Shown here: positions 6,601 to 58,575 of the stretch, one piece after another | How the letters are laid out: each line of letters opens with the position of its first letter | Numbering within the stretch: position 1 is the first letter of the stretch | From: Euglena gracilis | Taxonomy: Eukaryota | Direction: 5' to 3' | DNA: 64,000 bases | NCBI GenBank assembly: GCA_039621445.1 | Contig: CP154954.1 | Location: 4,516,714-4,580,713 of the forward strand | Translations under genes and position numbers: made by a program | The notes under the pieces: generated by a model | The model's database searches: none | Seen by the model: the letters and a program-made list of their open reading frames with translations, nothing else | What the model was told of the DNA's origin: nothing

Positions 6601-8802
6601 GTGGGTGCAAGGCGAGGAAACGCTTTCCAAGAGGACAGGTCAACAAGCAAAGAGGGGAAGAGCAATTTCCGGGAGGGTGGGCAGCCCTGCAAAAAAAAAT
6701 GGTGTGGAAATCAGACATCTCTCTAAGGTTTTGCGAACCCCCCGGGGGGGGGGGAGCTGCAGCCAGCCCCGATTTGGGCCCAGCCCAGCCGCAGCCCACC
6801 CCACCCCCGGGGGGGGGGGGGGGGGGTGCTGCTAGTCCTAGCTAGCCAGCCCCTTTTTGGGGGTCCAGCCCAAAATTTTTCGGCGCAAAGCGCCGAATTT
6901 TTTTGAAAAACTGTGTTCAAAAGTGGCCAAAAATGGGTTTGGGGGGTGTTTGGGCCATTTTTGGGGGGTTTCAGATGCATCATTTTTTCAAAACTGTGTT
7001 CTGCAGGACATTTTTGGGCATTTTTCTGATTTCAGTTCAGCTCGCCCCGGTTCGGGTCCAGCCGGGGTCCAGCCCCCCCCAGGGGGGGGGGGCTAGCCAG
7101 CCCAAATTTCTAGCCAGCCCAAATTCCTAGCCAGCCCAAATTTCTAGCCCTAGCCCAGCAACCCCCCGGGGTCCTTAAAGAGATGTATGGTGGAAATGGT
7201 AGAGCGCCAAGAGGGAGACACAACAGCGTCGGACCTTGCACCACCAGTCGCACATTCCAGTTGCCCTCCGGCAGGACGGTTTGCCGGAGGTGGTCCTTCA
7301 GGTCGCCAATGCTCTCGTGCCTGAGGAAGAGCAGCGGATGGATTCCGTGTATTTCTGATGTTTCTGGTGAATGTTTCTCTGAAGGTGAGGGGATCGTTTC
7401 CCAGTGTGGACCGTTTCGTGTGTGTTTCACGAGGACCTCCAAAATGGGAACAATGAGGGAGTCACCTGCCAAAGCGCACCACCACAGGGCCTTCAGATGG
7501 GCGGGTTTCCGAACGATCATGAGCAGGGTCAATGATGTGAGAACTGTGGAATAGGCTTTGTTTTGGCCAAGGTAGAATCCCACAAGGATTCAAGGTGAAG
7601 CCAGTTTTGAAGAGATTAGGCTTTGGTAGGGGGGTGGCAGAGAAGGGGGGGAAGACAAAGAGGAAAGTAGCGACCCAACAACATGGTGGCAGAGAAAAAG
7701 ATAACAGAACAGAATACTGGGGCGCGATATGATCAGGCATTTGCTTAAGGACCCGGGGGGGGGGGGGGTACTGGCTAGCCAATCGGCTAGACACTGGAAA
7801 AAATGAACTAGCTAGAACCCTCCCCCCGGGGGAGGGGGGGGTCCGGGTGTCCCCCGAACTGGAAAAAAAATTTTCCTCCGGCGCACAGCGCCGGAGGAAA
7901 AATGAGGTTTTTAATAGGTTTTTGGCTGATTTTGTTCCAAAAATTCCCCAAAATGGACAAAAACGGGCATTTTTGGCCATTTTGGGGGGTCCCAAAAAAA
8001 TTTTCCGCGCTTCGCGCCGGTCACTGGAAAAAAAATTTCCACTAGCTAGCCCTGCTAGCATACCCCCCCCCTGGGGGGGGTCTGCTAGAAATCCCACTAG
8101 CCAAATTTGGGCTAGTTGCTGTCCACCCCCCCGGGGGGGGGGGGGGGTACTGCAATCCCTTAAGCAAATGCCTGGATATGATTCCATCCCTGTCAAAAAC
8201 TGAGTCAACCTACCAAACTTTGTTTGGCCCAGCAGCTCTCCCCCCCCTGCCAGGGGTCGCTGCTAGCCCAGCCAGCCGGAAAGGCTGGACAGCCAGCCCA
8301 AATTTCCAGCACTCCAGCAATCCCCCTGGGGTCCTTAAAGAGGTGGTTGATCGGGTTCCATCAGCAGCTGACAGAACCTTGCCACCGGCACAAAATAAAA
8401 GGTATTCAAAAATGGTCACAGTCCTCAGTTGCACAGAACAGAACTGGCTACGTATTTATCACCCTGTTTGTCCAAAATGGAAACCAATTCGCATCAAAGA
8501 AATCTAGAAAGACATCACAAACAGGGGTTTTTTTAAGACCGGGAGGGGAGGGGGGGAGGGGGTCGGCACCCACTGCAAAACCTCAATGAGATGTGTGACT
8601 CGTGGAATGACAGATGCCGATGCCGTAACTGTGCTACAACGAGATGTGTTTGCCTTGGCCGCCATCCCCCACCCCGCACACAGCCGCCCTGTCCACGGGG
8701 CAGCGTCACCGCCACGAAGAAGCGAATGGGCAGACCGCTGGGCGCCGCGGAATGCAAGACCGCGGGGCCCTCGATGGAAATGGCCACTTCGCCGTTTTCC
8801 AT
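3690..8802 (-). CDS. Putative ubiquitin-like-domain protein with C-terminal hydrophobic segment (multi-exon)
   Basis: Exons ~7235-7354 and ~6006-6065 join via GT-AG intron 6066-7234 to IHPLLFLRHESIGDLKDHLRQTVLPEGNWNVRLVVQGRQCSDGHTLQQTGITYGGK, a UBL-like pattern. In-frame GT-AG intron 4896-4989. Other candidate exons 8690-8802 (MENGEVAISIEG), 7466-7545, 4990-5120, 4745-4895, 3690-3908. Ends uncertain. Confidence 0.6.
6712..7189. mobile_element. hAT-like MITE, family B
   Basis: TIR CAGACATCTCTCTAAGG / CCTTAAAGAGATGTATG; TSD GTGGAAAT 8/8; second copy inverted at 42021-42502. Confidence 0.9.
7734..8174. mobile_element. hAT-like MITE, family A (CTAG-rich)
   Basis: TIR CAGGCATTTGCTTAAGG / CCTTAAGCAAATGCCTG; TSD GATATGAT 8/8; near-identical to 14223-14669 and 16741-17183. 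Confidence 0.92.
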
Positions 8803-9795
8803 CGGAGAAGAGCATCAGCGGAGAGCCATGCCGGCTGCAGACCAAAAAAACCAATAACATAAACGGTGAAGGGAACAGCAGGCTGAAACTGGGTGAAAAG
8901 CAAAGCCATCAAGCCCCCGACTCTTTTTACAGAGATTATTTTTTGTTCACGTTCATTTCTGGAGCACCAAAGCTCATTTGTATTCAAACCAATGGTGGAT
9001 CCTGAAAACAAGATTTATCATTACCACTAACTGTCTTTGTGACGTTGTGTTGAAAAAAACAAGCTCGACCTTCTTTCTCCTCATAAGAAGGTTTGTTCAT
9101 TTTGGAGGCCTTTGGGGGATTACTTGGCAGACATTTACAAGAAGCTGTAAAACGTGGGGGAAGGGGCGCCATCTTCATTGTCCAACCCATAAAGAGTCTG
9201 AAGTATACCTATAAAGTGCCTTCATTTCCAGGAACAGATTGGATGTAATTTATTCATAACTCAGGATTGGATTTTGCGCAACCAAGTGCGAGATCAGGCC
9301 GCCTAAGTTGGTATCCTCCTGATGGGGTCAGGGTTTCAGCTGGGGCGACCGCATACCGCGTAATCCTAGGTGTTTTTTTTATTGAGAGAATTCGAATCAA
9401 ATGATACCTGATCTTAGGCCAAAATTCCGCCCAATAGGACAAATCGAACCGCACAAAGTTACCACTTTTTGACAGTCCCAAGCAGTTGCGCCGAGATCCG
9501 TCAAATGTATTCAGGATGCGGTCTTGTGCCCTACGACCGCAGGGGCAACTGTGAAAACTTTGACCACTGGGTGTCCTGACTGCGCCAGAAGACATGTTTC
9601 ACACGAAGCTTGGGCATGTCTCACATGGAACATCAACAACCTGGCAGGGGGGTGATAGGCACCCAAATGGGGGGGTCAAGCAGGAGGATGATGAGACGCC
9701 AAGGGCTCTCGACCAAACAGTCTGGGGGAGGGGTATTTTGCAGTTGTGTGTGCTGTGTTGTGTGAAACGGAAACAGGGTTCGGTATGACGCAGTG

Positions 9796-12700
9796 TCACG
9801 CGCAGGAGCGCAGGTGGGCGGCGACCTCCCCGCAGCGGGCCTCCACCTTCAGGCAGGCCAGGTCGTCGCCGCGCGTGGGCCCAACGTTGGCGATGACGAT
9901 GGGCACCTTGTTGGCGTGGGCGTGGCGGATGTACCTGGGCCATGGCAGGGGATACGCAGGAGATGGGGCCAGGGCTTTTTTAAGACCTGGGGGGAAGGGA
10001 AGGTCCCCCCACCCACCCAGGGTTCGATATAAGGAGAGGAGGGGGGGGTGGTCCGGACCCCCCCCTGGGGGCCAGGAGGGGGGGGGGTGGGGGGGGACAC
10101 CCCCCCCCACCTAAACAGTGGCGCGGTCAGGGTGACCGATTTTCGGCCCGGCGCTTCGCGCCGGGCCGAAAAATTTTGACCCCCCAAAACGACCAAAAGT
10201 GCCATTTTGGGCACTTTTTGGGCAAAAATTGGCCAAAAATGCAAAAAATTTTCGGCGCAAAGCGCCGGAGGAAAAAATTGGCCCTTTTTGGGGGGGGGGT
10301 CCCGGGTACCCCCCGAGGGTCGGTCCGGACCCCCCTTGCAGGTGGGGGGGGGGGTGGTCCGGACCCCCCCCTGCGGGCCAGGAGGGGGGGTGGGGGTTGG
10401 GGGGGACACCCCCCCACCTAAACCATGTACGCCCTCCTTATATCGAACCCTGCACCCACCCCCTGGGGGGCCGGGGGGTGGGGTCCCGGGGGACCCACTC
10501 AATTTTCCCCGAAAATGGCCAAACAATCGCGAAAAATGCTAAAAATAGCACCTTTTCAAAAAAATTTCACCGCCGAAAAGTATTATCTCCCCCCCCCCCC
10601 CCGGGCTCGGCCGGACACCCACCCTACCCCCCCCCCGTGGTCCAAGACTAAAAAAAAACCCTGGATAGGACAGATGTGAACCAGATTGACTTCAGCCCAC
10701 CAGAGAAGGTGCCAATCAAAAAAATAGTGTGTTATTTAAGAACAAAAGAAGGGGGGCCCCGACACTTTGGGCCGAGGGCATACCGAAAGATGGACGGGAC
10801 CTGCAGCGACGTGCCCAGGGCCAGGAGTAAGTCACTCTGGTCCAGCGGGGGCAGACCGCCCCCACCGGAGAGCCATCCCCCAGCGAGGCCGTTTGGGGCA
10901 AATGCCGGTCCCTTGCCAGCATCGGACAAGCAGCGACGCGCCTTTTCAGTTGGCCACACTACCACCACACGCACCCTGTGGGGGGCGGCAGAGTACCGCG
11001 TATTCTGTTCCAAAACAGACCGGCATTCTATGCATCAGAAACGCCCCACGTCAGAGGGGGAATTGATATCGGAGGCCAGCGGGCAAATTGCGGCAAACTG
11101 CGGTTATCGATTCCCCCCTGCCCTATGCCAGCAAGCTGTGGAGGAGCCAGCCTGGACTGCTCGTAGCCGCACTACAAGAGAAAGGTCATGGATTGGGCAG
11201 GGACGAAGGGACGAAATGGGGTCGGAGTTCTGAGAGAAACACCGGCTCTTGGCGACAAGACTTGGAAAGATTTGCCAGAGAACGTCCTGTCTCTTGTTGT
11301 CAAACGACTCACATTTTGCATGAATTTCAGATTCAGTATGCGAATGATGATATCAAATAAAAAATATTACGCAAAATATAATGTAAAAATATAATAAATA
11401 CAATAAATGCAGAAAATCATTTATAATAACATATGACTATTTCATTTTTATTATTATAATATAATAATATAATTATTATATTATTGATTATAATTATTAT
11501 ATCTAATTACATATTTATAAATATAATGCAATAATTATCATTATAAACAGCCAGCATTGCCACGCCTGCACAACGTGTTTGGGGATGCTCTCCCCGAACA
11601 TCACGACGTGCGGCTTCAGCACGCCGCCACACGCCGTGCAGTCAGGCACGGCGAAGAGCTGGGGGTCAGCCGCGAGGCGCCCGCACTCGAGGCCGGGGCA
11701 GTTTTGCAGCACCCTGTATGTAATGAACCCCTCCGGCGAATGCCTAACACACTGTGTATTGGACGCTCAAACCGAGGAGCTGAACGTCATCAGGTGCATA
11801 TTTATTTTCACTTCTGTAGGTTTATTTTAACATGTGTTCTCTATTCTGGAAATATTCAATGGAAGAATGTCATAATGGGGGGTTGTTCTGGGACCTCAAA
11901 CCAAAGCGCATTGTTTAGATGTGGGCTGGTATGGGCTGGGGCATCGAGGAGGGTCCGGGAGTTTAAGCCTGTCCCCCGCCCAGCCAGATGCGGGGGGAGG
12001 GGGGAAAGGCGCTTGCCCCGTGGGGCAGGGGCCTCGGCCAGACTGCTCTCAGCGTCCCCGTCGGGCCGCATTTGGGCCCAATCCCGCAGCTCATGGCCCA
12101 CCCCAGGCGTCTGCTCCAGGACCCCTGGCTGGGGCTCGGAACACCACTGGCTCGGCCCAAACCTCCCCCGCCACGTCGGGGTGTCGCCCCGGCTGCAAAA
12201 AAAAAAATACCTCCTCCAGCCACCGATGCGGAAATCAAGTGTGTTTTTAGCAAATTTTATTCCCGAAAACCCCAAAAATGCCCAAAGCTGGCGTTTTTGG
12301 CTGGGGTTAAGGGCAGACCCTCACTGCAGCCCCAGAGTGGTGGGGTGGTCCAATACAAATCCCACCGGCCGGTGTTTGGACGGGTTGCAGACCAGCCGCC
12401 CGCCTCCGGGGGCAATCCTCAAGCTAAGGCCTGGCCCACCCACCGTGGGTTGGCAGCGGCCATGCGGTGCTGCAGCTCCGTCCGCGGCGAAACAGCGCCG
12501 CACTGGGGGGGGGGGGGCGAGTACCTCTGGTCAACCCTGGCCCAGGGTCCAGCATCGCCCACCATCGTCGACAACAAAACACTTTGTTGCATGGCTGCAT
12601 TCACGCGCATGGCCATTGTGTGTACACGTTTTCCTATTCCAATAATCACCCCCCCCCGAAAGGACACGTTTTTGAAAGTTTCTTTGGGAGTTTGGCGAAA

Positions 12701-15700
12701 AAATGCACTGCCGTTTCTCCCGATCAGAGGACCGGAAGTTGCCTCCCTTGGGTAGCTGTCACCTCGGGCGTCCATGGGTTTGGTGGCAATTCGTAACAGT
12801 GGGCACCCCTTCAGGTCGACCCCCCGCCTCCTTTGCACTTCAACCCCCGCCGCAAAGCCAAATCCATCCACTTCGCCCTGGCCGAATCGGAAGCACGCGA
12901 GCTCCCGATGCCACCTTCGGTGGCCACATTCCTGCTGCATTGCTGCAACCCGTCCGGATGAATTTGTGGCAGAAAGCACCTTAACGCCCCTTTGGGGGGG
13001 GGGGGGGCGGGGGGTGCACCGGGGGGGAGGAGGGCATATGGGGCCACCCAGTTCCACGTTTAGGGAAAGTCAAAGTTGGGGTCAGGGTTCCGGCCTGACT
13101 CCCGGTAGGCTCCCATTTTTAGGAAGTTGGGAAAAGTGAGGCCGCATTTTGGACGCAGTCAGGAATTTAGGCAGAATTCGAACAATTTTTTTTGCTAAAA
13201 TTTATTTCCAAAAATTTTCTCGAACGTAGACATTTCTTCCGGCCTAACTTGGACCCTGAAGTTGACCAATTTCGGCACGCCGATCCCAACCCTGATCCTA
13301 TTCCTACAAATAGGACAACAGCCTCCCCGAATCCAGTGCAAGATATCCACTTTGGCTGCGCTTCCCAGCCGCCGGACCAAACCGTCGAGAAATGGGACCG
13401 GGTGGCCCTGTCACCCCCCCCCCTTGGAACACTCCAATGCCCCCCCTCCAGCTGCCAGGGGAGCTCCCTGCCGCATTTGTTCACCCTTGAAAATCGACCA
13501 AAAAGCTAACACGGATGATTATTTGGTAGAAATATGCCAGAACCCTAAGCTTCCTTTGGCTGGAGCGCCGAAGAAAAAAAAACAGAGCCTTTGGGAGGGG
13601 TCTTGGGGTGCCCAGGAGTTCTGGACCACTTCGGGGCGGACAGTTGTCCCCTTCCTCTGTGATGCCCACCTTATCACCCAAAGGTCACTGCCACCCCCCC
13701 CCCCCGTGGGAAGAAGATACGCACTGGAAATCGCGGCATGCCTAAATACCCCCCAAATACAAAAGCCCCCCACCCCGCTTCAAATTTGGACAGGATTTCA
13801 AAACCTTCAGGCTTTATACTGGGGGGGAAATCAAACTTTTTGGGGTGGCCTGTGACCTTCGGCGACCTTCAATTTATGGCCCGATTAAGTGGGTGCAGCC
13901 AAGGGAGGGGATGCAGCAACTTGGAATGTGGCTGCCGACGGTGGCATCGGGCAATTGGACACCGACGGAGGTCGCGTGCTTCCGATTCGGCCAGGGCGCA
14001 GTGGATGGATTTGGCGTTGGGGCGGGGGGTGAAGTGCAAAGGGTGGCGGAAGGGTTGACCTGAAGGGGTGCCCTCTCGTGTCAATCCAGTCGCATTTGCC
14101 TTGGGGCACGAATTGCCATCAAACCCATGGACACTGCCCTGTTTCATGTCGTTGCTCGACCCAACCAGATCTGAGAGGCCCCCCACAGGGCTTAAGCGTA
14201 CCTCTGGGGGATGTATGGGAAGCAGGCTTTTGCTTAAGGACCCCCCCGGGGGGGGGGGGTACTGGCTAGCCAATCGGCTGGACACTGGAAAAAGTGGACT
14301 AGCTAGACCCCCCCTCCCCCCCGGGGGGGGGGGGGGGTCCGGGGGTCCCCCGGACTGGAAAAAAAATTTTCCTCCGGCGCTGCGCGCTGGAGGAAAAATG
14401 AGGTTTTTAACAGGTTTTTGGCTGATTTTGTTCCAAAAATTCCCAAAAATGGCCAAAAACGGGCATTTTTGGCCATTTTTGGGGGTCCCAAAAAAATTTT
14501 CGGCGCTTCGCGCCGGTCACTGGAAAAAAAATTTCCACTAGCTAGCCCTGCTAGCAGACCCCCCCGGGGGGGTGGGGGTCTGCTAGAAATCCCACTAGCC
14601 AAATTTGGACTAGCTGCAGCCCAGCCCCCCCCCCCCGGGGGGTACTGCAATCCCTTAAGCAAAAGCCTGGTGGGAAGCCTTGGGGGGGTAGCCCCCCCCA
14701 CATCGAAACTGATATGGGTCCGGAATTTTTTTGGTTTTGTGGACAGGCAAAGGGCCAGATACAAGGCCAAAATTGTTGGACATCCCTGATTTTTCTTTGA
14801 AATGTTTTTTTTAAAAAAAATTTGAACACTTCTGACTTGGAAAACACAAAAACATCAAAAGGTAGGCAATGTGCTCAAAAGTGAAGCAAAACGTGTTTTT
14901 TTTTTGCTCATTTTCCGGTGGCAGCACTGGAAAAAAGTTCACGCTATTTTTGGAACCTGCCGAGGAGGGGGGCCCGGACACCCCCTCCAACACATGGGGA
15001 TCCAGATCCCCCCTATCACTTTACCACCCCCCTAGTTGCACTATGGCTGTGTCTCTGTTCATGGCCGGCGCTAACTTCGCTTCTGGCCCAGTTTGCTGTA
15101 TGGCCAGGTACCCCTTACACCCCCACCTCACCGCCCGCCCGGGGGGGGGGGTCGCCCCCCATACCCAATACTGACAGCCTTCATATCCCTGGGTCCAGCT
15201 CAGAGGCTGGAAAATATGGGCTGGCTGGAAAAGCCACCCCCCCCCCCGGGGGGGATGGGTTCCTACAGCTTAAAGGTCCTGCTAAGACGTCCTGGCCCCC
15301 CATCACAGCGGTGAGGGATGGGGCAAGGGACCTGGAGGCAGACTACGGAGCGGGCGTTGCCGTGCAGCTCCGTGACGGCCCGGCTGCCCGCCGCCGCGTG
15401 CAGCCCGTCCACGTTCTGCGTGAGAATGGCGCCACCGCTGCCGCGCCACGGCGGCCGGCGGGAGAGTGAGCTGGTCCGTGTGTCCGTTCCGGGGCTGGCA
15501 GCCATGGTTTGCTCACCCCCCCCCAGGGAAGTGGTCACCGAACAGGTTCGTTCGCTTCTGCTTCAGGTGCAACGGCCGTCGAAAAGCACCACACAAAAAA
15601 AAAATAGCAAGAACACAACCAAAAAAAAACTAAAAGAATTTCATGTGCAGTTCTGGATCTGGGAAAAATCAAACCGCTAGCTTAAAATGCACGGCGCAAA

Positions 15701-17976
15701 CCTTCACTGGGAACTTCCCATGGCGGCGGGGGGAGGGAGCTACCTATCTGCCCCCCCCCCTGCCTCCCGGTCCATGAGGTTGTCCCCTGGCAAGAACCAG
15801 CGAGTGCAAACCGGGTGGCAAATCTGTGGAGCTTTCCAAAGTGGCCAAGCTGCCATGTTGGGCCGACAGTGTCTTCTGGGCTGTGTGATCGTTTTGTGGG
15901 GGTGAGAATTTCACAGGACGGGGGGTGGGACTGGATGGCCACAATTCTGTCATCCAGCGGCAGCGTTGGGTGTGGTGGACCCATCCGCGTGCCTCCAACT
16001 CAGCCAGGGCGAAGTGTATGGCGTTTGGCTGTGGGAGGGGGGGTGGAGGGGGAGAGCCGGCTCACATCCGAGGACCACAAAGCACTTGCTATTGTCATCC
16101 CGTGTCTCGTCATTGTCATCAAAGAGTTGTCATCCCCTGTCCTGCAAGCAGCCATCCCAGCCAACCGAGCACTGCCAGCCCGACCTTGCTCGGCGGTTCC
16201 AACCCTCCAAGTATGTTGCAAAAGGAGGCCAAAAAAAAGCTGGGAACTATATTTTCAAGAAAGGAAACAGGGGGGAGACAAACCTTTGCCTGGGCAAACC
16301 GGTCCCAGCCGAGGTATGCCCTCGCCCAATATCGCTGCCGCTTCTCGGGCGACTTCACAAACTCCTGGTACGTCGTGGGCTTGTGGCCTGAGAGACAGCA
16401 GCGCCACTGTCCTCCGAAGAAGACTTTTCCAGACAGGAGACAACTCCATGGAAAGGATGGTACTTTCAGTCATGTGGCAACCCTCTCTTTTTAGCATCGG
16501 GGCCCGGAAGCAAAATCAATCGGGCTTTTTCGACGGATGACAGCTTTGAATTTCATTGACATGAACGTTGACAAATCAGACGAAAGAATCGTACACAAAA
16601 TAATCAAATAAAAAATCATGCACACATAAATAATGATGAAAAAGAACAATAGGCTGATAGGCACAATTTGCTGAAAGTGTCAGGAAACACTTACCAACCT
16701 GAATGGGAAATGTAAGGTTTAAAATTGTAAGGGTGGTGGCCAGGCTGTTGCTTAAGGCCCCCCCGGGGGGGGGGGGTACTGGCTAGCCAATCGGCTAGAC
16801 ACTGGAAAAAGTGGACTAGCTAGACCCCCCCTCCCCCCCCGGGGGGGGGGGGGTCCGGGGGTCCCCCGGACTGGAAAAAAAACGAGGTTTTTAACAGGTT
16901 TTTGGCTGATTTTGTTCCAAAGATTCCCAAAAATGGCCAAAAACGGGCATTTTTGGCCATTTTTGGGGGTCCCAAAAAAATTTTTGGCGCTTCGCGCCGG
17001 TCACTGGAAAAAAATTTTCCACTAGCTAGCCCTGCTACCAGACCCCCCCCCCGGGGGGGGGTCTGCTACACCCCCCCCCGGGGGGGGGGGCCTGCTAGAA
17101 AACCCACTAGCCAAATTTGGACTAGCTGCAGTCCAGCCCCCCCCCCCCGGGGGGGGTACTGCAATCCCTTAAGCAAAAGCCTGGTGGTGGCAACTGGATC
17201 GCAAGCTTCTTCTGGGGACCCAAACAACCCCCTCCGGGACACTGTCATGTCTCAGAAACTAAACCCCCCCAAAAATAAGACCGGGGGTCCATTTCATGGG
17301 TTGGTTGCTGGAAAGCCCGAGGGGGGGTCTTATTCATGGGGGGGGTCCATTTTATGGATTTTTGCTGGAAAAATTTTCGACCCCCCAAATGTCCAAAAAT
17401 GACACCCCAAAATACCACTTTTCAAAAAATTCGGCGCTTCGCGCCAGACAAATAGGGTAAAATATGCTGAATTGTGTGAAAACAGTCCCAAAATAGCAGA
17501 TTTTCCCCCCCCAAAATGTACCATTTTTCAAAAATCTGGCGCTTCGCGCCGGCAGGGGGGGTCTTATTCATGGGGGGGGTCCATTTCATGGATTTTTGCT
17601 TGGACCGGCCAGGGGGGGTCTTATTTTTTGGGGGGGTCCATTTTATGGGGGGGGTCTTATTTTGGGGGGGGGGGTTTATCAGGTATAAGGTCCCTGGTAC
17701 TCACCAACGTGCCAGGTGACAGTTTCCGGGGGGGGTACTTATTGATGAAGGGCCACACGTAAACCACTCAGGGAGGGAGACGCTGCAGGGGCTCGGCAGT
17801 CCAACCACACCTTGGGACAGGCTGCCAGACGGGGAGCGATAGTCAGGGATGCCGGACTCCGTGCTGCAGCCCGCCCCCGTCACGACCAGCAGGCGGCGGA
17901 CTTGCCCGAGGAGGGCTGTCAGCGCACGCACGGCCTCGGGGGCCAGCGGCGGGGCGGCCGGCGCGAAGCCGGGCAT
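9796..17976 (-). CDS. SIRT4: NAD-dependent sirtuin, class II (SIRT4-like), ~9-10 exons
   Basis: Exons 17811-17976+, 16284-16387, 15972-16028, 15332-15427, 12437-12502, ~12048-12098, ~11563-11676, (10927-10941?), 10784-~10845, 9796-9934 give [40 protein letters not shown], CxxC, RPDGD, [17 protein letters not shown], GTSLQV and NVGPTRGD. Five introns are clean GT-AG (16388-17810, 16029-16283, 12503-15331, 9935-10783 verified in frame; two junctions unresolved). Start may be further upstream. Confidence 0.95.
9970..10663. mobile_element. hAT-like MITE, family C, carrying a nested element
   Basis: Ends CAGGGCTTTTTTAAGAC / [29 protein letters not shown] / GATAGGAC 6/8. Confidence 0.8.
10018..10452. 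mobile_element. hAT-like MITE, family F, nested in 9970-10663
   Basis: Perfect 19-bp TIR CAGGGTTCGATATAAGGAG; TSD CACCCACC 8/8; diverged copy at 18781-19152. Confidence 0.9.
12099..12436 (-). other. Nonconventional intron 5 of SIRT4; body 12104-12433 is a diverged family-A MITE
   Basis: Perfect 8-bp direct repeat GCCCACCC (12096-12103 / 12434-12441) around CAGGC...GCCTG; splicing gives [22 protein letters not shown]. Confidence 0.85.
12771..14131. repeat. Inverted repeat pair (12771-~12945 and ~13910-14131) containing decayed copies of SIRT4 exon 3
   Basis: TCCATGGGTTTGGTGGCAATTCGT mirrors ACGAATTGCCATCAAACCCATGGA; both arms contain CCATCCACTxCGCCCTGGCCGAATCGGAAGCACGCG. Confidence 0.85.
14223..14669. 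mobile_element. hAT-like MITE, family A
   Basis: TIR CAGGCTTTTGCTTAAGG; TSD ATGGGAAG / GTGGGAAG 7/8. Confidence 0.92.
15428..15971 (-). other. Nonconventional intron 3 of SIRT4
   Basis: CAC CAC|ACC-CAACGCTGCCGC...GCGGCAGCGGTG-GCGCC|ATT CTC; 11/12-bp terminal stem; splicing gives WVHHILTQNVD. Confidence 0.8.
16741..17183. mobile_element. hAT-like MITE, family A
   Basis: TIR CAGGCTGTTGCTTAAGG / CCTTAAGCAAAAGCCTG; TSD GTGGTGGC 8/8. Confidence 0.92.
17260..17678. mobile_element. MITE with TAAACCCCCCC-type TIR and internal sub-repeats
   Basis: TAAACCCCCCCAAAAATAAGACC / GGTCTTATTTTGGGGGGGGGGGTTTA; repeated GGGGGGTCTTATTCATGGGGGGGTCCATTT; similar architecture at 45249-45635. Confidence 0.65.
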
Positions 17977-32300: not shown

Positions 32301-35300
32301 AATTCTTTTGCCAAAAAATGCCCAAAATGGCACTTTTGGTCGTTTCGGAGGGTCAAAGATTCTCGACCCGGCGCCTTGAGCCGGGCCGAAAATCGGTCAC
32401 CCGGACCTTGTTTCGGTTGGGGCGCTGGTTGGCAGCCGTGCCACACCGGCACCTCTCAGCCCCAACCAGGAGTTTTTTTTAAAGACCGGGGGGGGGGGGG
32501 GGGGGCCCCCACCCACCCCTGGGGGGGTCCCGGGGAACCCACCCAAAAATCGCGAAAAATACCAAAAATAGCACTTTTTTCAAAAAATTTCGGTGCCTTC
32601 GGCGCGCGCCGAAAAGTACATCCCACTTCCCCTGGGGTGATCCCCCTGGGGTGGGGGGGGGGGGGCTGGTCCGGCCCCACCAACCCTTCCCCCCCCCCCG
32701 GGGGTCCACGACTAAAAAAAAAAAAACCCCTGGCTTGGAAATTAAGAAAACCGCCGGCTGCGGGGTGGACACCTCCAGCAGGTCAAAGTGCCGCAGCACC
32801 GCCTCGTCCAGCACCATCCCTGTGGGGGGCCCACCAGAATTCGCACCCGACGGCAGTCGTACAAGCTCAGTGGGAGTTGAGGCCAAAGGCAGGGGCGGGG
32901 TGGGGGGGGTTCGTGGGGGGACAGCGCAGACCTCTGTTTAGTGTGTATCAATGATACACATCGATACACAAATTTTTTGGCCGATACACACCGATACACA
33001 AATTTTTTTTGCCAATACACACTAAACAGAGGTCTGGAACAGCGGCATGCCCATGGCAACCGATTTTCAGCCCGGCGTGTAGCAGGAGAATATTGACCTT
33101 TTGCGGGAATATGGCCCGGATTTGGTCTAAATTCGGCCTAACTCTGGTCTGAAACAGGGCCCAAACTCGTCCTATAATTCCATATAGGCAACCCCCACAT
33201 ACATCTGGCCATGACTTCAACCCGGTCCCTAAAAATTCTCCAAATTTCCCGAAAAGATTGGGAACCGGATTCGCATTATATGTCCCTACCGATTGGCCAA
33301 AAATGCGACCCCAAATCAAACAAAAGCCCCCTGAGCACTGGCAGCCGGCTGCTAACATTTTGGAAAGTTGGGCTTCAGGGTTGCTAATATTTTGGGGTTG
33401 CCTGTGTTCGGAGAGTCTCTTCTTTCTGCCGTGTCAGTTAAATTCATTGCAACCAGTCAGGGGAGGGGAATCAGGGGTCAGGGGTCTTTACATTTGGATG
33501 CTGGTGGAGAATCGGCCAAAGAGCTGGGGGGAGTCAGCTGTGATTTTGATTGATTTTGATTTGATTTTGATTGTGATCCTGTGTTTTTGGCCGAGGCCGA
33601 AAGATGTGTACCATTTCTGAAAGTAACGCCAAAAGACACAGGGTCGCCGCCATTCGGGGACAAACAAATGAGCATTTGGAGTGTTGCCTCCCTGGGCAGT
33701 GTTGCGCCATCTGAGCCATGCTGTGCAGTGCACATGAGATTGAGGAGGGGCGGTGACACAGCACACACCCGTCAGGTCGGTAGGCGGTGGGAAGAGCAAG
33801 GCCATCCGAATGCGCCTCGCTTCCTCCTTCCGGTCCAGGGCTGCGTCCCCTTCCGCTGCGAGGGGGTGGCTGTGCTGGTTCGGGTTCAGAAAAGGGCACG
33901 TTTCCCATCGCCAAGCTCCGATGGCCATGGAGTCCCTCTGTCAAAATGTCCTTCCCTGTGCCTCCAATACCAAATCCGAGGCTTAGAGCGAATCTAGCAC
34001 CCCCCTTTGGTGTACCTGGGCACCCTTAAAAAGAAGGGGGGGGTACCTGGGATGAGGCCAGGTTGGCAAGGTCAGGCCCAGATTTTAGGGGGTGTCTTCT
34101 CCCTGAGCAAAAAAACAATACACATTCCCACCAAACTTTTCAAGAAGTGAAACCAAATGTATTTGGGTGGTGGTTTTCAGGCAACCGTTCGCCAAAAAAA
34201 AAGCAAAAGGTACAGGTTGGCCACGTTGGGGGCGCAGAGCAGGCCTCTTACCTCTTACGTGCCTTCAATGGGGTGCCAGGCACACCTCCCAGGGGTGGGG
34301 GGGGTCGGCTTTCGTGCTTGCCAAACCAAATTTCCCTAGAAAATGGTAATTTTCAAGCCCCACGGGGGGTGTGACATAGCACCACCCACCCAAACAGGGT
34401 TTTTTAAGACTGGGGGGAGGGGGGAGGGGGTCGGCACCCACCCACCCACCCACCCACCTCCCCCCCCCAGGGGAGGGGGTCCCGGGGGACCCACCCACCT
34501 TTGCCCGAAAATGGCCAAAAATGCTAAAAATAGAATTTTTTAAATTTTTCGGTGCCTTTGGCGCCAAAAAAAGATATACCCACCAGCCCCTACCCCCACC
34601 CCCCCCAGGGGGGAGGGGGGTCCAAGGGACCCACCCGCCCTCTCCCCCTCCCCTCCGGGGGAGGGGGTCCAAGACTAAAAAAAAACCCTGCACCCAAAAC
34701 ATCACCCTGGGGGTCGGAAGTGACCTACCCCCCTGCCTTGGGGGGGGGTGAGCTTCCTTAAAAAGAAGCCCGGCACGGAGGAACGAAGTGCACAAGTTGC
34801 AGGTCACAGGCACATGGAACCTTGAAGCCCAGCAACCCCAGCGTGGCAGTGGCCATCCCCCACTGCGCACGTTGTCAGGGTCAGGGCGTTTGTAAACGAC
34901 CCCCCCCCCGGGGGGGCTCAGAGGCTGGAAAGTTTGGGCTGGCTGGAAAAAGGCTGCTGGCTGACTCCCCCCCCCCCGGGGGTCCCGAGCTGGAGCTGGG
35001 CCCGACTTGGGGTCGAACCAGGAACCAAAAAATCAAAAATTTAAAAACTGCCAACTGTGCAAAAAAAAAATCGATTTTTTACCCAAATTTTTCCTGGCCA
35101 GCCCAAATCTGACTCATTTTCCCCCATTTTTGACCCATTTTTGCCCATTTTTGTACCTCCAAATGCGAAAAATTGAAAAAGTTTCCGTCCAGCAGTCCTT
35201 CAGGCGGCTGGAAATAAATCAATCTCATTGAGGGGGGGGAAGGGGGTCCAGGCTGGAAAAAGGCTGCTGGCTGGCAGGCCCCCCCGGTGGGTGGGGTCAA

Positions 35301-42020: not shown

Positions 42021-42502
42021 CATACATCTCTTTAAGGACCCCCGGGGGGGGGGGGGTTGCTGGGCTAGGGCTAGAAATTTGGGCTGGCTAGAAATTTGGG
42101 CTGGCTAGCCCGCCCCCCCCCGGGGGGGGGGGGGGGGGGCTGGACCCCGGTTTGACCCGAGCCGGGGCGAGCTGGACTGAAATCGGAAAAATGCCCAAAA
42201 ATGACCTGCAAAACACAGTTTTGAAAAAATGACGCATCTGAAACCCCCCAAAAATGCCCCAAACGGCCCCCAAACCCCATTTTTGGCCACTTTTGAACAC
42301 AGTTTTTCAAAAAATTTCGGCGCTTTGCGCCGAAAAATTTTGGGCTGGACCCCCAAAAAGGGGCTGGCTAGCTAGGGCTAGCAGCACCCCCCCCCCCCCG
42401 GGGGAGGGGGCTGCTGCGGCTGGGCTGGGCCCAAACCGGGGGTGGCTGGCACCGCCCCCCCCCGGGGGGGGGGGGGGTCGCAAAACCTTAGAGAGATGTA
42501 TG
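42021..42502. mobile_element. hAT-like MITE, family B (opposite orientation to 6712-7189)
   Basis: CATACATCTCTTTAAGG / CCTTAGAGAGATGTATG; TSD TTCCAAAC / TCCCAAAC 7/8. Confidence 0.9.
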
Positions 42503-51800: not shown

Positions 51801-54800
51801 TGGTCATCCAGAATCCCACACCAGGTCACGCCCAGTCACGCCCAGTCACGCCCCAGTCACGCCACAGTCACGCCCCAGTCACGCCCCAGTCACTCCCCAG
51901 TCACGCCCCAGTCACGCCCCAGTCACGCCCCAGTCACACCACAAATCAGTTCATAGGTGCTTGGCCAGCACGAAGGTGCGGCTCCCAGCTGCCAGGAGGA
52001 GGGCCTCCGCCACGATGTCCACCGCAGCGTTGAGCCGGGGCCCGTACGGCGGCCCGGCAGGCGGCCGCCCACCCCTGATGGGCCCATGGGGTGTTGTGGG
52101 GTCCCCCCGGTCAAAGGAAAGACCCCCCCCAAAGAATAATGCCGGCACCTCCACCGGGAAAAAAAACAGCGCCCCCCCCCCCCCTCCGGGGTGATCAGGC
52201 GGGGTTGGAGTGACCCGTGTGAAACGTCAACGTGGGCCAACCAAAATTAAGAAAACGCCTTTTTTTGCTTAAAATGAAAGAAAAAATGGCGGAAAGCGGC
52301 CGTCCAATGAGACTGCCGGAGTCCACTGGAAGCGAGCGGCAATCTGGCCGGGGGGTCTCGGAGCCGGTGCGCGGCGGTGAACTGGGCGTACGTCGCAAGG
52401 AAGGCCACCCGCGGGGGGGCCCGGTGTCCTTCTTCGCCGAAGAGGGCAGCTTGGCAGAGGGGCGGAGAAGCTCTGGGGTGCAGCTTCTCTCCTTTATGAA
52501 AGGCATACCATGTGCAGAAAAAAACTTGTCTGAAGTGACATGGGGACGGTGTTGACCATGGTGGGTCAACAGGAACGATAAATGCTGGCCTCAGACTTAG
52601 TTTAATGGCACTCAAGACAACACACAAATAGAAAAAATAGATAAATAGGTGAACCAAAAATAATGTGAAATATTGTACACAGAATATGATGCAAGAACGT
52701 TGATATTTGCATAAAATAATCCAGCCAATCTCGTGATTGCGATTCTTGGGAAAACTGAAATAAAGATTCAGCCAGGGAATTCCTTGAGGGAGTCCCGAGG
52801 GCTGGCTGGAAAAAGGTGCTGGCTAGAACTCCTCCCCCCCCCCAGAATAGGTGGGGGTCGCTGAGCTCTTATCCCTTTATGGGTAAGAGCGAAGCTTACC
52901 ACCGTCGAAATCCCCCCCTCGACCCCCCCCCCCCCCCCCCCCCCCGGGTCGGGGCCACCAGGAGAACCGACGGATTATCACCATGATCCCGGCCCGGTTC
53001 CCGGAATTTTTTTTCAGTCGCGAGCGACTGGATTCCTAGTTTCCGAATCACCTGGGTTTGACCCCCAACTCCCCGCCAGGCCCGAGTTATTCACGCGCGA
53101 AGGGGTCCAAACTCGGTAGGATTTACCCGCCCCCCCTGGATGAGCCCCCCCCCCCTTTGGACTCTGCCATTTCGGCCAAAAAATGTCCATTTTCAAAATA
53201 TCTCCAAAATGAAGCCAAATCAAAGGAAATATCCGGAGACCTAATTTGAAGCCCTTGGAACGCCCCATCCACCGGTATTTTGATTTCCCCCCAACTCCTC
53301 GCCTAGCCCGAGATACGGCCATTTTCGGCGCAGCTGGCCGTTTTGTACACTTTTCCCTCTGTTCGACTTAGCCGTTTTCGGGGGGTGGGGGTCAAAAAAT
53401 CGATGTTTTCAAAATTTCTCGAAAATGATGCAAAATCAAAGGAAATGTCCGGAGACCTAAATTGAAGCCCTTGGGACGCTCTATCTACTGGGATTTTGGT
53501 TTTCCCGCAACTCCCCGCCCAGCCCGAGATACGGGCGTTTTTTTGGCCAATTTGGGCCATTTCAGGCCATTTTGTACACTTTTCCCTCTATTCGACTTAG
53601 CCGTTTTCGGCCAAAAAAGTCAAAAAAAATCGAGAAAAATTTTTTTGCCCGAAACGATGTTTTTTGGCCTCCCGGACCCGGAAAAACTGTTTTCGAGCCG
53701 AAAACGAGCGTTTTTCGACCCGCCGGCACCCCGTTTTGGGCCGCCGACCCATTGACTGTGGGTCAAAACCGGGTCAAATAAGTCGAAAAAAATCGAAAAA
53801 AATTTTTTGCCCGAAACGATGTTTTTTGGCCTCCCGGACCCGGAAAAACTGTTTTCGAGCCAAAAACGAGCGTTTTTCGACCCGCCGGCGCCCCGTTTTG
53901 GGCCGCCGACCCATTGACTTTGGGTCAAAACCGGGTCAAAAAAGTCGAAAAAAATCGAAAAAAAATTTTTTGCCCGAAACGATGTTTTTTGGCCCGGAAA
54001 AACTGTTTTCGAGCCGAAAACGAGAGTTTTCGACCCGCCGGCGCCCCGTTTTGGCCGCCGACCCATTGACTGTGGGTCAAAACCGGGTCAAATAAGTCGA
54101 AAAAAATCGAGAAAAAATTTTTTGCCCGAAACGATGTTTTTTGGCCTCCCGGACCCGGAAAAACTGTTTTCGAGCCGAAAACGAGCGTTTTTCGACCCGC
54201 CGGCGCCCCGTTTTGGGCCGCCGACCCATTGACTTTGGGTCAAAACCGGGTCAAAAAAGTCGAAAAAAATCGAAAAAAAATTTTTTGCCCGAAACGATGT
54301 TTTTTGGCCTCCCGGACCCGGAAAAACTGTTTTCGAGCCAAAAACGAGCGTTTTTCGACCCGCCAGCGCCCCGTTTTGGGCCGCCGACCCATTGACTGTG
54401 GGTCAAAACCGGGTCAAAAAAGTCGAAAAAAATCGAAAAAAAATTTTTTGCCCGAAACGATGTTTTTTGGCCCGGAAAAACTGTTTTCGAGCCGAAAACG
54501 AGAGTTTTTCGACCCGCCGGCGCCCCGTTTTGGCCGCCGACCCATTGACTGTGGGTCAAAACCGGGTCAAATAAGTCGAAAAAAATCGAAAAAAAATTTT
54601 TTGCCCGAAACGATGTTTTTTGGCCTCCCGGACCCGGAAAAACTGTTTTCGAGCCAAAAACGAGCGTTTTTCGACCCGCCGGCGCCCCGTTTTGGGCCGC
54701 CGACCCATTGACTTTGGGTCAAAACCGGGTCAAAAAAGTCGAAAAAAATCGAAAAAATATTTTTTTGCCCGAAACGCTGTTTTTTGGCCTCCCGGACCCG

Positions 54801-55738
54801 GAAAAACTGTTTTCGAGCCGAAAACGAGCGTTTTTCGACCCGCCCGCGCCCCGTTTTGGGCCGCCGACCCATTGACTTCGGGTCAAAACCGGGTCAAAAA
54901 AGTCGAAAAAAATCGAAAAAAAAATTTTTGCCCGAAACGATGTTTTTTGGCCTCCCGGACCCGGAAAAACTGTTTTCGAGCCGAAAACGAGCGTTTTTCG
55001 ACCCGCCGGCGCCCCGTTTTGGGCCGCCGACCCATTGACTGTGGGTCAAAACCGGGTCAAATAAGTCGAAAAAAATCGAGAAAAATTTTTTTGCCCGAAA
55101 CGATGTTTTTTGGCCTCCCGGACCCGGAAAAACTGTTTTCGAGCCGAAAACGAGCGTTTTTCGACCCGCCGGCGCCCCGTTTTGGGCCGCCGACCCATTG
55201 ACTGTGGGTCAAAACCGGGTCAAATAAGTCGAAAAAAATCGAGAAAAAATTTTTTGCCCGAAACGACGTTTTTTGGCCTCCCGGACCCAGAAAAACTGTT
55301 TTCGAGCCGAAAACGAGCGTTTTTCGACCCGCCGGCGCCCCGTTTTGGGCCGCCGACCCATTGACTGTGGGTCAAAACCGGGTCGAAAAAAGTCGAAAGA
55401 CCTCCATGGGGTGTGCCGGTATGTATGGAGGGGTCAATGAAGGGGTGGGTGCGCGCTTCAAGAGCTCAGCACTATTCAAAACCTGGTCCACGGGGGTCCT
55501 GGCTGCTGGGCTGGTCCCAGTTGCCACCCAAAAACAGCTGTATCCAGCTGCGTTGGATTTTTCTAGCCGAATCAGCCAAAAAATTCAATCCTAATGAAAC
55601 ATATTGGTAAGTGTTTGAACAGCTTCTTTAAATAAAACACATTTGTTTCTGATGTCGGATTAATATGCATTCATTCATATGGATTCATTCATTTGTAGTT
55701 GGTGCTGTGGTATGTGTGACTCTTTCAGCCACTGCAGG

Positions 55739-58165: not shown

Positions 58166-58575
58166 CAGGGGTGTTCTTAAGGACCCTGGGAGGGGGGGGC
58201 GGGGTCCCGCAGGCCGGCTGGAAAAAAGGTCCTGGCTGGACCCCCCTGGGGGGTGGGTGCTCCAGGGAGGTTCGAGCCCGAATGGCAGCTGGACCCGACA
58301 GCTGCCAAAATGCCCCCAAAAAAGTCCAAATCCAGGAGGGTTGGGATTTTTCAGCCAAATTTAGGTTGCAAAATCCCAAAAACCACCCAAAAAGGCCATT
58401 TTTGCCCATTTTTAGCCGCTGTTTCCAAAAACTTGGTCCAGGCCAAACGTTATTTCAACGAACCCCTGGGGGGGGGGGGTCAGCCCAGCTTGGAGGTGCT
58501 TGCTAGAAAAAAAAGGTGCTGGCTGTCTGGACCCCCCCAGGGGGTAGGGTCCCCTCCGGCTCAAGAAAACCCCTG
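58166..58575. mobile_element. hAT-like MITE
   Basis: CAGGGGTGTTCTT / AAGAAAACCCCTG; TSD GACATGCT / GCCATGCT 7/8. Confidence 0.85.

What the first reader, a model, noticed from the sequence alone, without database searches (positions are those of the whole stretch)
12096..12441. SIRT4 intron 5 is itself a decayed family-A MITE with a perfect TSD
Perfect GCCCACCC duplication. Ends CAGGCGTCTGCTCCAGGA / TCCTCAAGCTAAGGCCTG resemble family-A CAGGCTTTTGCTTAAGGA / TCCCTTAAGCAAAAGCCTG. The interior (ATTTTATTCCCGAAAACCCCAAAAATGCCCAAAGCTGGCGTTTTTGGC) is colinear with ATTTTGTTCCAAAAATTCCCAAAAATGGCCAAAAACGGGCATTTTTGGC of 14223-14669. It interrupts coding sequence, so the gene works only if it is spliced. 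This is the clearest single case linking element and intron.
Basis: partly seen in the sequence, partly recalled or inferred. Interest (0 to 1): 0.85.

Follow-up and report, generated by a model that had tools for sequence, protein, structure and literature searches.

The report
Transposon copy serving as Euglena intron
The fifth intron of a Euglena sirtuin gene is an old copy of a small jumping-gene family plus one copy of the 8-letter duplication it made on landing, a concrete example for the long-suspected transposon origin of Euglena's odd introns that lack the usual GT-AG ends.

Summary
At 12096-12441 a 330-bp element (12104-12433) is flanked by a perfect 8-bp repeat, GCCCACCC. Its ends and interior are colinear with three intact "family A" MITE copies in the window. 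A family-A profile scores it at E 2e-11 and 5e-8; 0 of 500 shuffles come near.

The element lies in a SIRT4-like sirtuin gene on the minus strand, with 10 exons and 9 introns. A Euglena transcript-derived protein (P0001, 285 of 288 residues identical to the window's model) reads ...[12 protein letters not shown]... That is exactly the element plus one repeat copy (338 nt) removed. None of the 11 compatible junctions is GT-AG.

In one register the intron reads GGC-CAG...CTG-GGGTG|G. This matches the published nonconventional splicing code, N3-CDG...CHG-N5-6|R (PMC12501133). The 3+5 spacer bases equal the family's 8-bp target-site duplication, so such an insertion is removable without a scar.

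The MITE origin of these introns was proposed in 2013 and was still called unclear in 2025. My five paper searches found no intron traced to a named repeat family.

Caveats: this is a single locus. No transposase was found, so assignment to the hAT superfamily is unproven.

The parts
9796..17976 (-). SIRT4-like sirtuin gene: 10 exons, 9 introns, 867-nt coding sequence including the stop
   Evidence: Exact matches of P0001 to the window. The spliced model gives 288 aa with no internal stop, 285 of 288 identical to P0001. Best solved relative 5oj7_A, E 2.4e-75.
12437..12502 (-). Exon 5 (...[22 protein letters not shown]...), with boundaries in the splicing-code register
   Evidence: The upstream intron 4 (15331..12503) is GT-AG.
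12099..12436 (-). Intron 5, 338 nt, written in the register that fits the nonconventional splicing code: 5'-GGC CAG ... CTG GGGTG-3' followed by an exon starting with G. Ten other registers (12441..12104 to 12431..12094) give the same protein.
   Evidence: The code is taken from PMC12501133 (abstract, sections 8 and 11).
12434..12441 (.). Target-site duplication copy GCCCACCC, upstream in gene orientation; part of the codons for W-V-G
12104..12433 (+). 330-bp diverged family-A MITE copy, in the same orientation as the three intact copies; it makes up the body of the intron
   Evidence: nhmmer E 2.3e-11 and 4.7e-8. 0 of 500 shuffles reach 8 bits against 37.3 for the real element. Colinear four-way alignment at 65-67% identity.
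12096..12103 (.). Second target-site duplication copy GCCCACCC, downstream in gene orientation
12416..12433 (-). Terminal inverted repeat arm at the 5' end of the intron RNA (CAGGCCTTAGCTTGAGGA); carries the CAG motif at intron positions +4 to +6
   Evidence: 3 mismatches to the family-A end.
12104..12121 (-). [quoted passage not shown]
   Evidence: The duplex of the two 28-nt intron ends is -31.2 kcal/mol; 1 of 500 shuffles does as well.
12040..12098 (-). Exon 6 (...[20 protein letters not shown])
7734..8174 (+). Intact family-A copy, 441 bp, TSD GATATGAT (8 of 8), outside the sirtuin coding region
14223..14669 (+). Intact family-A copy, 447 bp, TSD ATGGGAAG/GTGGGAAG (7 of 8), a passenger inside conventional intron 4
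16741..17183 (+). Intact family-A copy, 443 bp, TSD GTGGTGGC (8 of 8), a passenger inside conventional intron 1

Best explanation
A non-autonomous DNA transposon of the family-A lineage inserted into what was then one continuous exon of a Euglena SIRT4-like gene. The lineage has CAGGC...GCCTG ends, roughly 18-bp inverted repeats and an 8-bp target-site duplication, and so looks hAT-like. The insertion duplicated GCCCACCC.

The element brings its own CAG...CTG termini, which can pair. The duplicated 8 bases supply the 3-nt and 5-nt spacers that Euglena's nonconventional splicing machinery requires. That machinery therefore cuts out the element plus exactly 8 nt and restores the original reading frame without a scar.

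The insertion has since persisted as intron 5. Its interior has drifted, while the terminal CAGGC/GCCTG bases and the flanking exons stayed intact.

Shown here: the anatomy, the homology, the TSD length, the fit to the code, and the junction in a transcript-derived protein. Inferred: transposition as the event, immediate spliceability, the age of the insertion, and the superfamily.
For: 1. The perfect 8-bp repeat abuts the element's termini exactly. Intact family copies show the same TSD length (8 of 8, 8 of 8, 7 of 8). So do other CAG-ended elements in the window:
- 10018-10452, 8 of 8
- 34395-34690, 8 of 8
- 6712-7189, 8 of 8
- 42021-42502, 7 of 8
- 58166-58575, 7 of 8

2. Homology to family A is significant, colinear and reaches both ends.

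3. P0001 reads [12 protein letters not shown], which is the element plus one repeat copy removed. Of 11 compatible junctions, none is GT-AG, GC-AG or AT-AC. With all nine introns removed, the window gene gives an open 288-aa frame that is 285 of 288 identical to P0001.

4. Read-through of the intron gives QALA and then a stop after residue 164 (sequence). The product would lack the second Cys pair, so the intron must be removed.

5. In register 12436..12099 the intron is GGC-CAG...CTG-GGGTG|G. This is the genetically defined code 5'-N3CDG-/-CH'GN5-6|R (PMC12501133: abstract, sections 8 and 11). The spacers add to 3+5 = 8, the TSD length.

6. The intron ends pair at -31.2 kcal/mol; 1 of 500 shuffles does as well.

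7. Decay is uneven. The element's arms match each other 13 of 18, against 16-17 of 18 in intact copies, and its interior is 65-67% identical to the family. The exons remain intact. This argues that the gene has been under selection with the element in place.

8. An independent precedent: a recently gained nonconventional intron in E. agilis gapC has 8-nt direct repeats at its junctions (PMC4770533, passages).
Against: - Splicing evidence is at protein level only. P0001 differs from the window model at residues 106, 110 and 120, so it may derive from another allele, paralogue or strain. In principle that source could lack the insertion.
- The minimum-free-energy fold of the whole intron does not pair the two ends with each other, and its energy is unremarkable (z 0.64; 70 of 100 shuffles fold at least as well).
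- No compensatory changes are seen in the arms.
- No transposase was found among the 144 long ORFs scanned, so the superfamily is unproven.
- The three other nonconventional introns of this gene show no such link. Introns 6 and 8 have no repeat relatives in the window. Intron 8 shows no TSD trace by my reading. Intron 3 was not tested for either.
Confidence: 0.8

Rival explanations
1. The window's gene copy is an insertion-disrupted allele or paralogue that is not spliced. On this view the transcript behind P0001 comes from an "empty-site" copy that never received the element, so the junction in P0001 reflects absence of the element rather than splicing.
For: P0001 differs from the window model at 3 of 288 residues, so it need not come from this exact copy. 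No read-level evidence was obtained.
Against: The element is old: its arms match 13 of 18 and it is 65-67% identical to the family with several deletions. Yet all ten exons are intact and the nine-intron model gives an open frame. A dead allele of that age should carry frame-breaking changes. The element also satisfies every element of the experimentally defined splicing code (PMC12501133).
Confidence: 0.08
2. The intron arose by double-strand-break repair that captured a piece of MITE DNA as filler. On this view the 8-nt repeat is a repair fingerprint and no transposase was involved.
For: This mechanism was proposed for the E. agilis gapC intron that has 8-nt repeats (PMC4770533, passages).
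Against: The repeat abuts the exact inverted-repeat termini of a full, colinear element. Independent copies in non-coding DNA carry repeats of the same 8-bp length at the same termini. That pattern is the signature of transposition, not of random filler capture.
Confidence: 0.05
3. The element belongs to a separate, older sister family that shares the end motif and core with family A. On this view it is not a decayed copy of family A itself.
For: Identity to family A is 65-67%, against 90-96% among the intact copies. The window holds several related families that share the ...TAAGGA subterminal motif and the CCAAAAATGGCC core.
Against: Its best hits in the window are the three family-A copies, not the other families. 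Its ends match the family-A end at 14 and 15 of 18. This rival changes only the label, not the mechanism.
Confidence: 0.25
4. The resemblance is due to chance or low complexity (G/C and A runs), and the 8-bp repeat is one of the short junction repeats common at Euglena introns.
For: Short direct repeats flank 84% of E. agilis introns (PMC12501133, passage). The region is rich in homopolymer runs.
Against: 0 of 500 dinucleotide shuffles exceed 7.9 bits, against 37.3 for the real element. The two hits are colinear and reach the termini. An exact 8-mer at two fixed positions is expected about once in 65,000 trials.
Confidence: 0.02

Closest known systems
Euglenid nonconventional introns and their splicing code, 5'-N3CDG-/-CH'GN5-6|R (Nomura et al. 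2025, PMC12501133; Milanowski et al. 2014, PMC3935182)
   Same: The borders are not GT-AG. CAG stands at +4 to +6 and CTG at -8 to -6. The spacers are 3 nt and 5 nt. The downstream exon starts with a purine. The ends can pair. Direct repeats make the junction "slidable". The intron coexists with conventional introns in one gene.
   Different: This intron can be traced to a named multi-copy repeat family that has its own target-site duplications. The papers I read propose such an origin only from the inverted ends, and still call the origin unclear (PMC12501133 discussion passage; PMC11282704 passages).
E. agilis gapC intron 4 (strain ACOI 323), a recently gained nonconventional intron (PMC4770533, passages)
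   Same: [quoted passage not shown]
   Different: The authors read the repeats as a double-strand-break repair fingerprint, and the passages I read report no source repeat family. Here the 8 bp matches the duplication length of a family with free copies.
Introners: MITE-derived spliceosomal introns in Micromonas, Aureococcus, dinoflagellates and Fritillaria (review PMC11282704, passages; Huff et al. 2016 seen only in a reference list)
   Same: A non-autonomous DNA transposon lands in an exon and is removed from the RNA. The target-site duplication takes part in defining the splice boundaries.
   Different: As I recall the field, most introners are removed by the spliceosome, usually at GT-AG sites partly built from the element and the duplication; the review also lists noncanonical cases such as Fritillaria. 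Here the borders are noncanonical and follow the separate Euglena code, whose machinery is unknown.
hAT-superfamily MITEs, and the maize Ds element processed as an intron (Giroux et al. 1994, title seen only in the reference list of PMC3935182; hAT features recalled from memory)
   Same: The target-site duplication is 8 bp. The inverted repeats are short and begin with CAG. The element is non-autonomous and a few hundred bp long.
   Different: No transposase was found in the window. The fifth terminal base is C, where the recalled hAT consensus has G. Other superfamilies also make 8-bp duplications (recalled: P, Merlin, Zisupton).

Membership tests
Euglenid nonconventional intron | Lacks GT/GC-AG (and AT-AC) borders in every register compatible with the mRNA | tested here: met
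   Of 11 protein-compatible junctions, none is GT-AG, GC-AG or AT-AC.
Euglenid nonconventional intron | CDG three nt after the 5' junction, and the complementary CH'G followed by 5-6 nt before the 3' junction (PMC12501133) | tested here: met
   Register 12436..12099 reads GGC-CAG...CTG-GGGTG.
Euglenid nonconventional intron | Purine as the first base of the downstream exon | tested here: met
   The exon starts with G (ggccat).
Euglenid nonconventional intron | Intron ends can base-pair and so bring the junctions together | tested here: met
   The end-to-end duplex is -31.2 kcal/mol; 1 of 500 shuffles does as well. However, the whole-intron minimum-free-energy fold does not choose this pairing, and its energy is unremarkable.
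Euglenid nonconventional intron | Actually removed from the mature mRNA | tested here: inconclusive
   The junction is present in the transcript-derived protein P0001. That transcript is 285 of 288 identical to the window's model, not identical.
Euglenid nonconventional intron | Excised as a full-length circular RNA, after the conventional introns (known to me from review passages in PMC11282704 and from PMC6221363) | not testable with these tools
   Needs RNase R treatment and RT-PCR, or read data.
Family-A MITE of this window | Significant, colinear sequence similarity over the length of the element | tested here: met
   E 2.3e-11 and 4.7e-8 in colinear order. 0 of 500 shuffles come near the real score. 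Four-way alignment.
Family-A MITE of this window | Terminal inverted repeat CAGGCTTTTGCTTAAGGA | tested here: met
   The arms match the family end at 14 of 18 and 15 of 18. The first five bases, CAGGC, are intact on both arms.
Family-A MITE of this window | 8-bp target-site duplication | tested here: met
   GCCCACCC, 8 of 8. The intact copies show 8 of 8, 8 of 8 and 7 of 8.
Family-A MITE of this window | Length 441-447 bp and about 90% or more identity among members | tested here: not met
   The element is 330 bp and 65-67% identical to the intact copies. It is therefore a diverged relative or an older subfamily, not a young member.
hAT superfamily | 8-bp target-site duplication | tested here: met
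hAT superfamily | An autonomous partner encoding a hAT transposase (with the hAT dimerisation domain) | tested here: inconclusive
   0 Pfam families in 144 of the 159 ORFs of 128 aa or more. One 64-kb window cannot show absence, and no whole genome was held.
Spliceosomal introner | GT-AG (or GC-AG) splice sites used by the spliceosome | tested here: not met

The most novel reading that the evidence does not exclude
The nonconventional splicing system of Euglena may in effect be an RNA-level precise-excision system for one superfamily of CAG...CTG-ended transposons that make 8-bp target duplications. On this reading its fixed geometry, 3 nt before CAG plus 5 nt after CTG, equals the 8-bp duplication. 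Every exonic insertion is then erased from the mRNA without a scar from the first day. Most nonconventional introns (about 72% of introns in E. agilis) would be decayed copies of such elements. A testable prediction follows: in young nonconventional introns the 3 intronic bases before CAG repeat the first 3 bases of the downstream exon, and the 5 intronic bases after CTG repeat the last 5 bases of the upstream exon.
Probability: 0.4. Interest if true: 0.85.

Novelty: new variant of a known kind. Interest (0 to 1): 0.7.

Why it matters
Euglenids carry a second class of introns that in E. agilis outnumbers the conventional class. Their removal machinery and their origin are both unknown.

The MITE-origin idea dates from 2013 (PMC3935182). 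A 2024 review (PMC11282704) and a 2025 genetic study (PMC12501133) still describe it as a suggestion, and the 2025 study calls the origins unclear. My five paper searches found no report of such an intron traced to a specific repeat family.

This locus supplies that link. The numerical match between the splicing code's 3+5 spacers and the family's 8-bp target duplication would explain why the code has that geometry, and why new introns of this kind can be gained without harm.

It also makes the question directly testable. The genomic test is to compare each intron's spacer bases with the adjoining exon bases, and to cluster introns against a repeat library. The bench test is to knock an intact family-A copy plus an 8-bp duplication into the existing reporter-gene assay.

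Tried and rejected
- **Whole genome:** none is held for this window. Family copy number, an autonomous partner and genome-wide statistics could therefore not be examined.
- **Sequencing runs:** no RNA holder was listed for the gene.
- **Read laying:** I have no read-level evidence on splicing, allele state or circular products.
- **Earlier findings:** three look-ups returned nothing.
- **Whole-intron RNA fold:** the energy is not better than shuffles (z 0.64), and the best fold does not pair the two ends with each other. I rely only on the end-to-end duplex test.
- **Other nonconventional introns of the gene:** introns 6 and 8 hit only themselves in the window. Their end pairing is weak (82 of 500 and 33 of 500 shuffles do as well). 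By my reading, intron 8 fits the CAG/CTG register, but its spacers match the adjoining exon bases at only about 2 of 8. I found no clean code register for introns 3 and 6. These introns neither support nor contradict the general model.
- **Transposase search:** Pfam found 0 families in 144 long ORFs. I had dropped 15 ORFs within 9695-14854 to fit the size limit.
- **Orthologues:** the protein search returned no other euglenid sirtuin among the best 120 hits. After P0001, the named hits among the best 120 carry bacterial or generic sirtuin names, at 51-57% identity; many rows carry no name. Presence or absence of the intron in relatives could not be checked.
- **Conventional splicing:** rejected, because no compatible junction is GT-AG.
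- **Insertion into a pre-existing intron:** rejected, because the duplicated bases are coding (codons for W-V-G) and element plus duplication account for the whole intron.
Full report
**1. The observation**

- GCCCACCC stands at 12096-12103 and again at 12434-12441.
- Between the two copies lies a 330-bp element, 12104-12433.
- The element begins CAGGCGTCTGCTCCAGGA and ends TCCTCAAGCTAAGGCCTG.

The consensus end CAGGCTTTTGCTTAAGGA occurs 8 times in the window at 3 mismatches or fewer, against 0.04 expected. These hits include three complete elements: 7734-8174, 14223-14669 and 16741-17183. They also include the right arm of the element in question. Each intact copy is flanked by an 8-bp repeat: GATATGAT (8 of 8), GTGGTGGC (8 of 8) and ATGGGAAG/GTGGGAAG (7 of 8).

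**2. Is the similarity real?**

A profile built from the three intact copies hits the element twice and in colinear order:
- 12175-12302, E 2.3e-11, profile positions 113-250
- 12331-12433, E 4.7e-8, profile positions 337-447

The real element scores 37.3 bits against that profile. The best of 500 dinucleotide shuffles scores 7.9 bits. With the element itself as the query, the best non-self hits in the window are the three family-A copies (E 1.7e-17, 1.3e-13, 2.7e-8).

A four-way alignment is colinear from end to end. Identity is 65-67% in aligned columns, with several deletions, while the intact copies are 90-96% alike. The element is therefore a diverged relative of family A. It is either an old, decayed copy or a member of an older subfamily.

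**3. The gene**

An exon-sized piece on the minus strand retrieved one long protein. This is P0001, 288 aa, which its source labels eukprot:EG_transcript_17989. I read "EG" as Euglena gracilis; that reading is my inference from recalled naming.

P0001 is a class-II, SIRT4-like sirtuin. Its best solved relative is 5oj7_A, at E 2.4e-75 and aligned over residues 5-284. That 5oj7 is a Sirt4 structure is recalled, not shown by the tool.

Exact matches place ten exons on the minus strand between 17976 and 9796. Removing nine introns gives an open 288-aa frame that is 285 of 288 identical to P0001. The differences lie at residues 106, 110 and 120, in exons 3 and 4.

The introns fall into three groups:

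| Introns | Type |
|---|---|
| 1, 2, 4, 9 | GT-AG |
| 7 | GC-AG |
| 3, 5, 6, 8 | no canonical register |

Two intact family-A copies lie inside conventional introns 1 and 4 as passengers.

**4. Intron 5**

Exon 5 ends ...AAANPRWVG and exon 6 begins (VG)HELRDW... P0001 reads ...[12 protein letters not shown]... The mRNA therefore lacks exactly 338 nt, which is the 330-bp element plus one copy of the 8-bp repeat.

Eleven junction pairs reproduce the protein. They arise from the 8-bp repeat plus a chance 2-nt extension. None of them is GT-AG, GC-AG or AT-AC.

If the intron were read through, translation would add QALA and then stop. The product would be cut before the second zinc-binding Cys pair. 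Intronless bacterial homologues read straight through this point, which lies in a variable loop between invariant W162 and D169.

**5. Fit to the known splicing code**

Nomura et al. (PMC12501133; I read the abstract, sections 8 and 11, and passages) defined the code by knock-in genetics. A nonconventional intron needs:
- 5'-N3-CDG ... CH'G-N5-6, followed by a purine at the start of the exon;
- a strict 3-nt spacer on the 5' side;
- a preferred 5-nt spacer on the 3' side.

In register 12436..12099 the intron reads GGC-CAG...CTG-GGGTG|G, so every element of the code is met. The two 28-nt ends form a duplex of -31.2 kcal/mol, and 1 of 500 shuffles does as well.

The fold of the whole intron is not exceptional, and its best structure does not pair the two ends with each other.

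**6. The point I think is new**

The 3+5 spacer bases add up to 8, the length of the family's target-site duplication. An element that ends in CAG...CTG and duplicates 8 bp on insertion is therefore, by construction, a substrate whose removal restores the pre-insertion mRNA exactly.

Other CAG-ended elements in the window show the same 8-bp repeats:
- 10018-10452 and 34395-34690, both 8 of 8
- 6712-7189, 8 of 8
- 42021-42502, 7 of 8
- 58166-58575, 7 of 8

Window-wide, perfect 8-bp repeats around CAG...CTG number 17 against 1.1 expected. Seven of these come from one satellite and one is low-complexity.

In the passages I read, Milanowski et al. 2016 (PMC4770533) report eight-nucleotide direct repeats at a recently gained nonconventional intron of E. 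agilis gapC, and attribute them to break repair. The present data suggest those repeats are a transposon's target duplication.

**7. Is this copy really spliced?**

The direct evidence is at protein level and comes from a near-identical, not identical, transcript.

Two indirect arguments favour splicing. First, the intron fits the code fully. Second, decay is uneven: the element's arms match each other only 13 of 18, against 16-17 of 18 in intact copies, and its interior has drifted to about 66% identity, yet all ten exons remain intact. I put the "dead allele, transcript from an empty site" rival at about 8%.

**8. Limits**

- This is one locus.
- Introns 6 and 8 of the same gene have no repeat relatives in the window.
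- Intron 8 fits the CAG/CTG register but shows no duplication trace. Old introns are expected to lose such a trace, so this is neutral.
- No transposase was found among 144 of the 159 long ORFs.
- No whole genome is held for this window, so hAT membership rests on duplication length and the CAG terminus only. The hAT features themselves are recalled from memory.

**9. Literature**

The MITE hypothesis was stated in 2013/14 (PMC3935182, passages). It was repeated in 2016 and 2018 (PMC4770533 and PMC6221363, passages) and in a 2024 review (PMC11282704, passages). The 2025 paper still says the origins "remain unclear" (PMC12501133, discussion passage). PMC11170887 (passages) also gives it only as a hypothesis.

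My five searches found no paper that traces a nonconventional intron to a specific repeat family, or that relates the 3+5 spacers to an 8-bp duplication. Subscription papers, such as the 2021 paper on circular intron RNA that the review cites, are outside the library, and I did not open any supplements.

**10. Verdict**

The kind of thing is known: transposon-derived introns, and nonconventional introns with a hypothesised MITE origin. A documented case, together with the 8 = 3+5 match, is a new variant and a useful lever on an open question.

Noticed in passing
window 10018-10452: A second MITE family: 435 bp, perfect 18-bp inverted ends CAGGGTTCGATATAAGGA, perfect 8-bp duplication CACCCACC. 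It lies inside conventional intron 9 of the sirtuin gene. Its interior shares the family-A core (profile hit at 10146-10353).
   Followed up: partly
window 6712-7189 and 42021-42502: A third related family with ends CA(G/T)ACATCTCT(C/T)TAAGG and 8-bp duplications (GTGGAAAT 8 of 8; TTCCAAAC/TCCCAAAC 7 of 8). The family-A profile hits both at E 1e-28 to 1e-31. One terminus is CAT rather than CAG.
   Followed up: partly
window 12770-12905 and 13923-14132: Long inverted repeats inside conventional intron 4: 76 nt at 93%, 29 nt at 90%, 25 nt at 96% and 25 nt at 92%. They bracket about 1 kb and suggest a foldback or long-inverted-repeat element next to the family-A copy.
   Followed up: no
window 53612-55398: A satellite of 163-bp units, 11.1 copies, 94% matches.
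   Followed up: no
window 11157-11171: Exon 8 of the sirtuin gene is a 15-nt micro-exon (CGYEQ), lying between GC-AG intron 7 and nonconventional intron 8.
   Followed up: partly
window 15332-16028 (exons 3-4): The window's gene differs from the transcript-derived protein at residues 106 (W against R), 110 (I or T against M) and 120 (A against T). This points to allelic, paralogue or strain variation.
   Followed up: partly
Target-site duplications at 12096, 10010, 34387, 16733 and 14215: Several duplications contain CCAC or CCCAC on one strand: GCCCACCC, CACCCACC, CACCCAAA, and the reverse complements of GTGGTGGC and GTGGGAAG. This could be a target preference or simply base composition.
   Followed up: no
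P0001 against P0002-P0120: After the Euglena transcript itself, the closest proteins in the large database are at 51-57% identity. Those that carry names are bacterial (for example Thermoanaerobaculia or Acidobacteria) or generic sirtuin names. No other euglenid sequence appeared among the best 120.
   Followed up: no
window 32927-33036: A 110-bp element with perfect 18-nt inverted ends CAGACCTCTGTTTAGTGT and a 7-of-8 flanking repeat (GGACAGCG/GAACAGCG). It is small enough to be a minimal intron-like MITE. I did not establish whether it lies in a gene.
   Followed up: no
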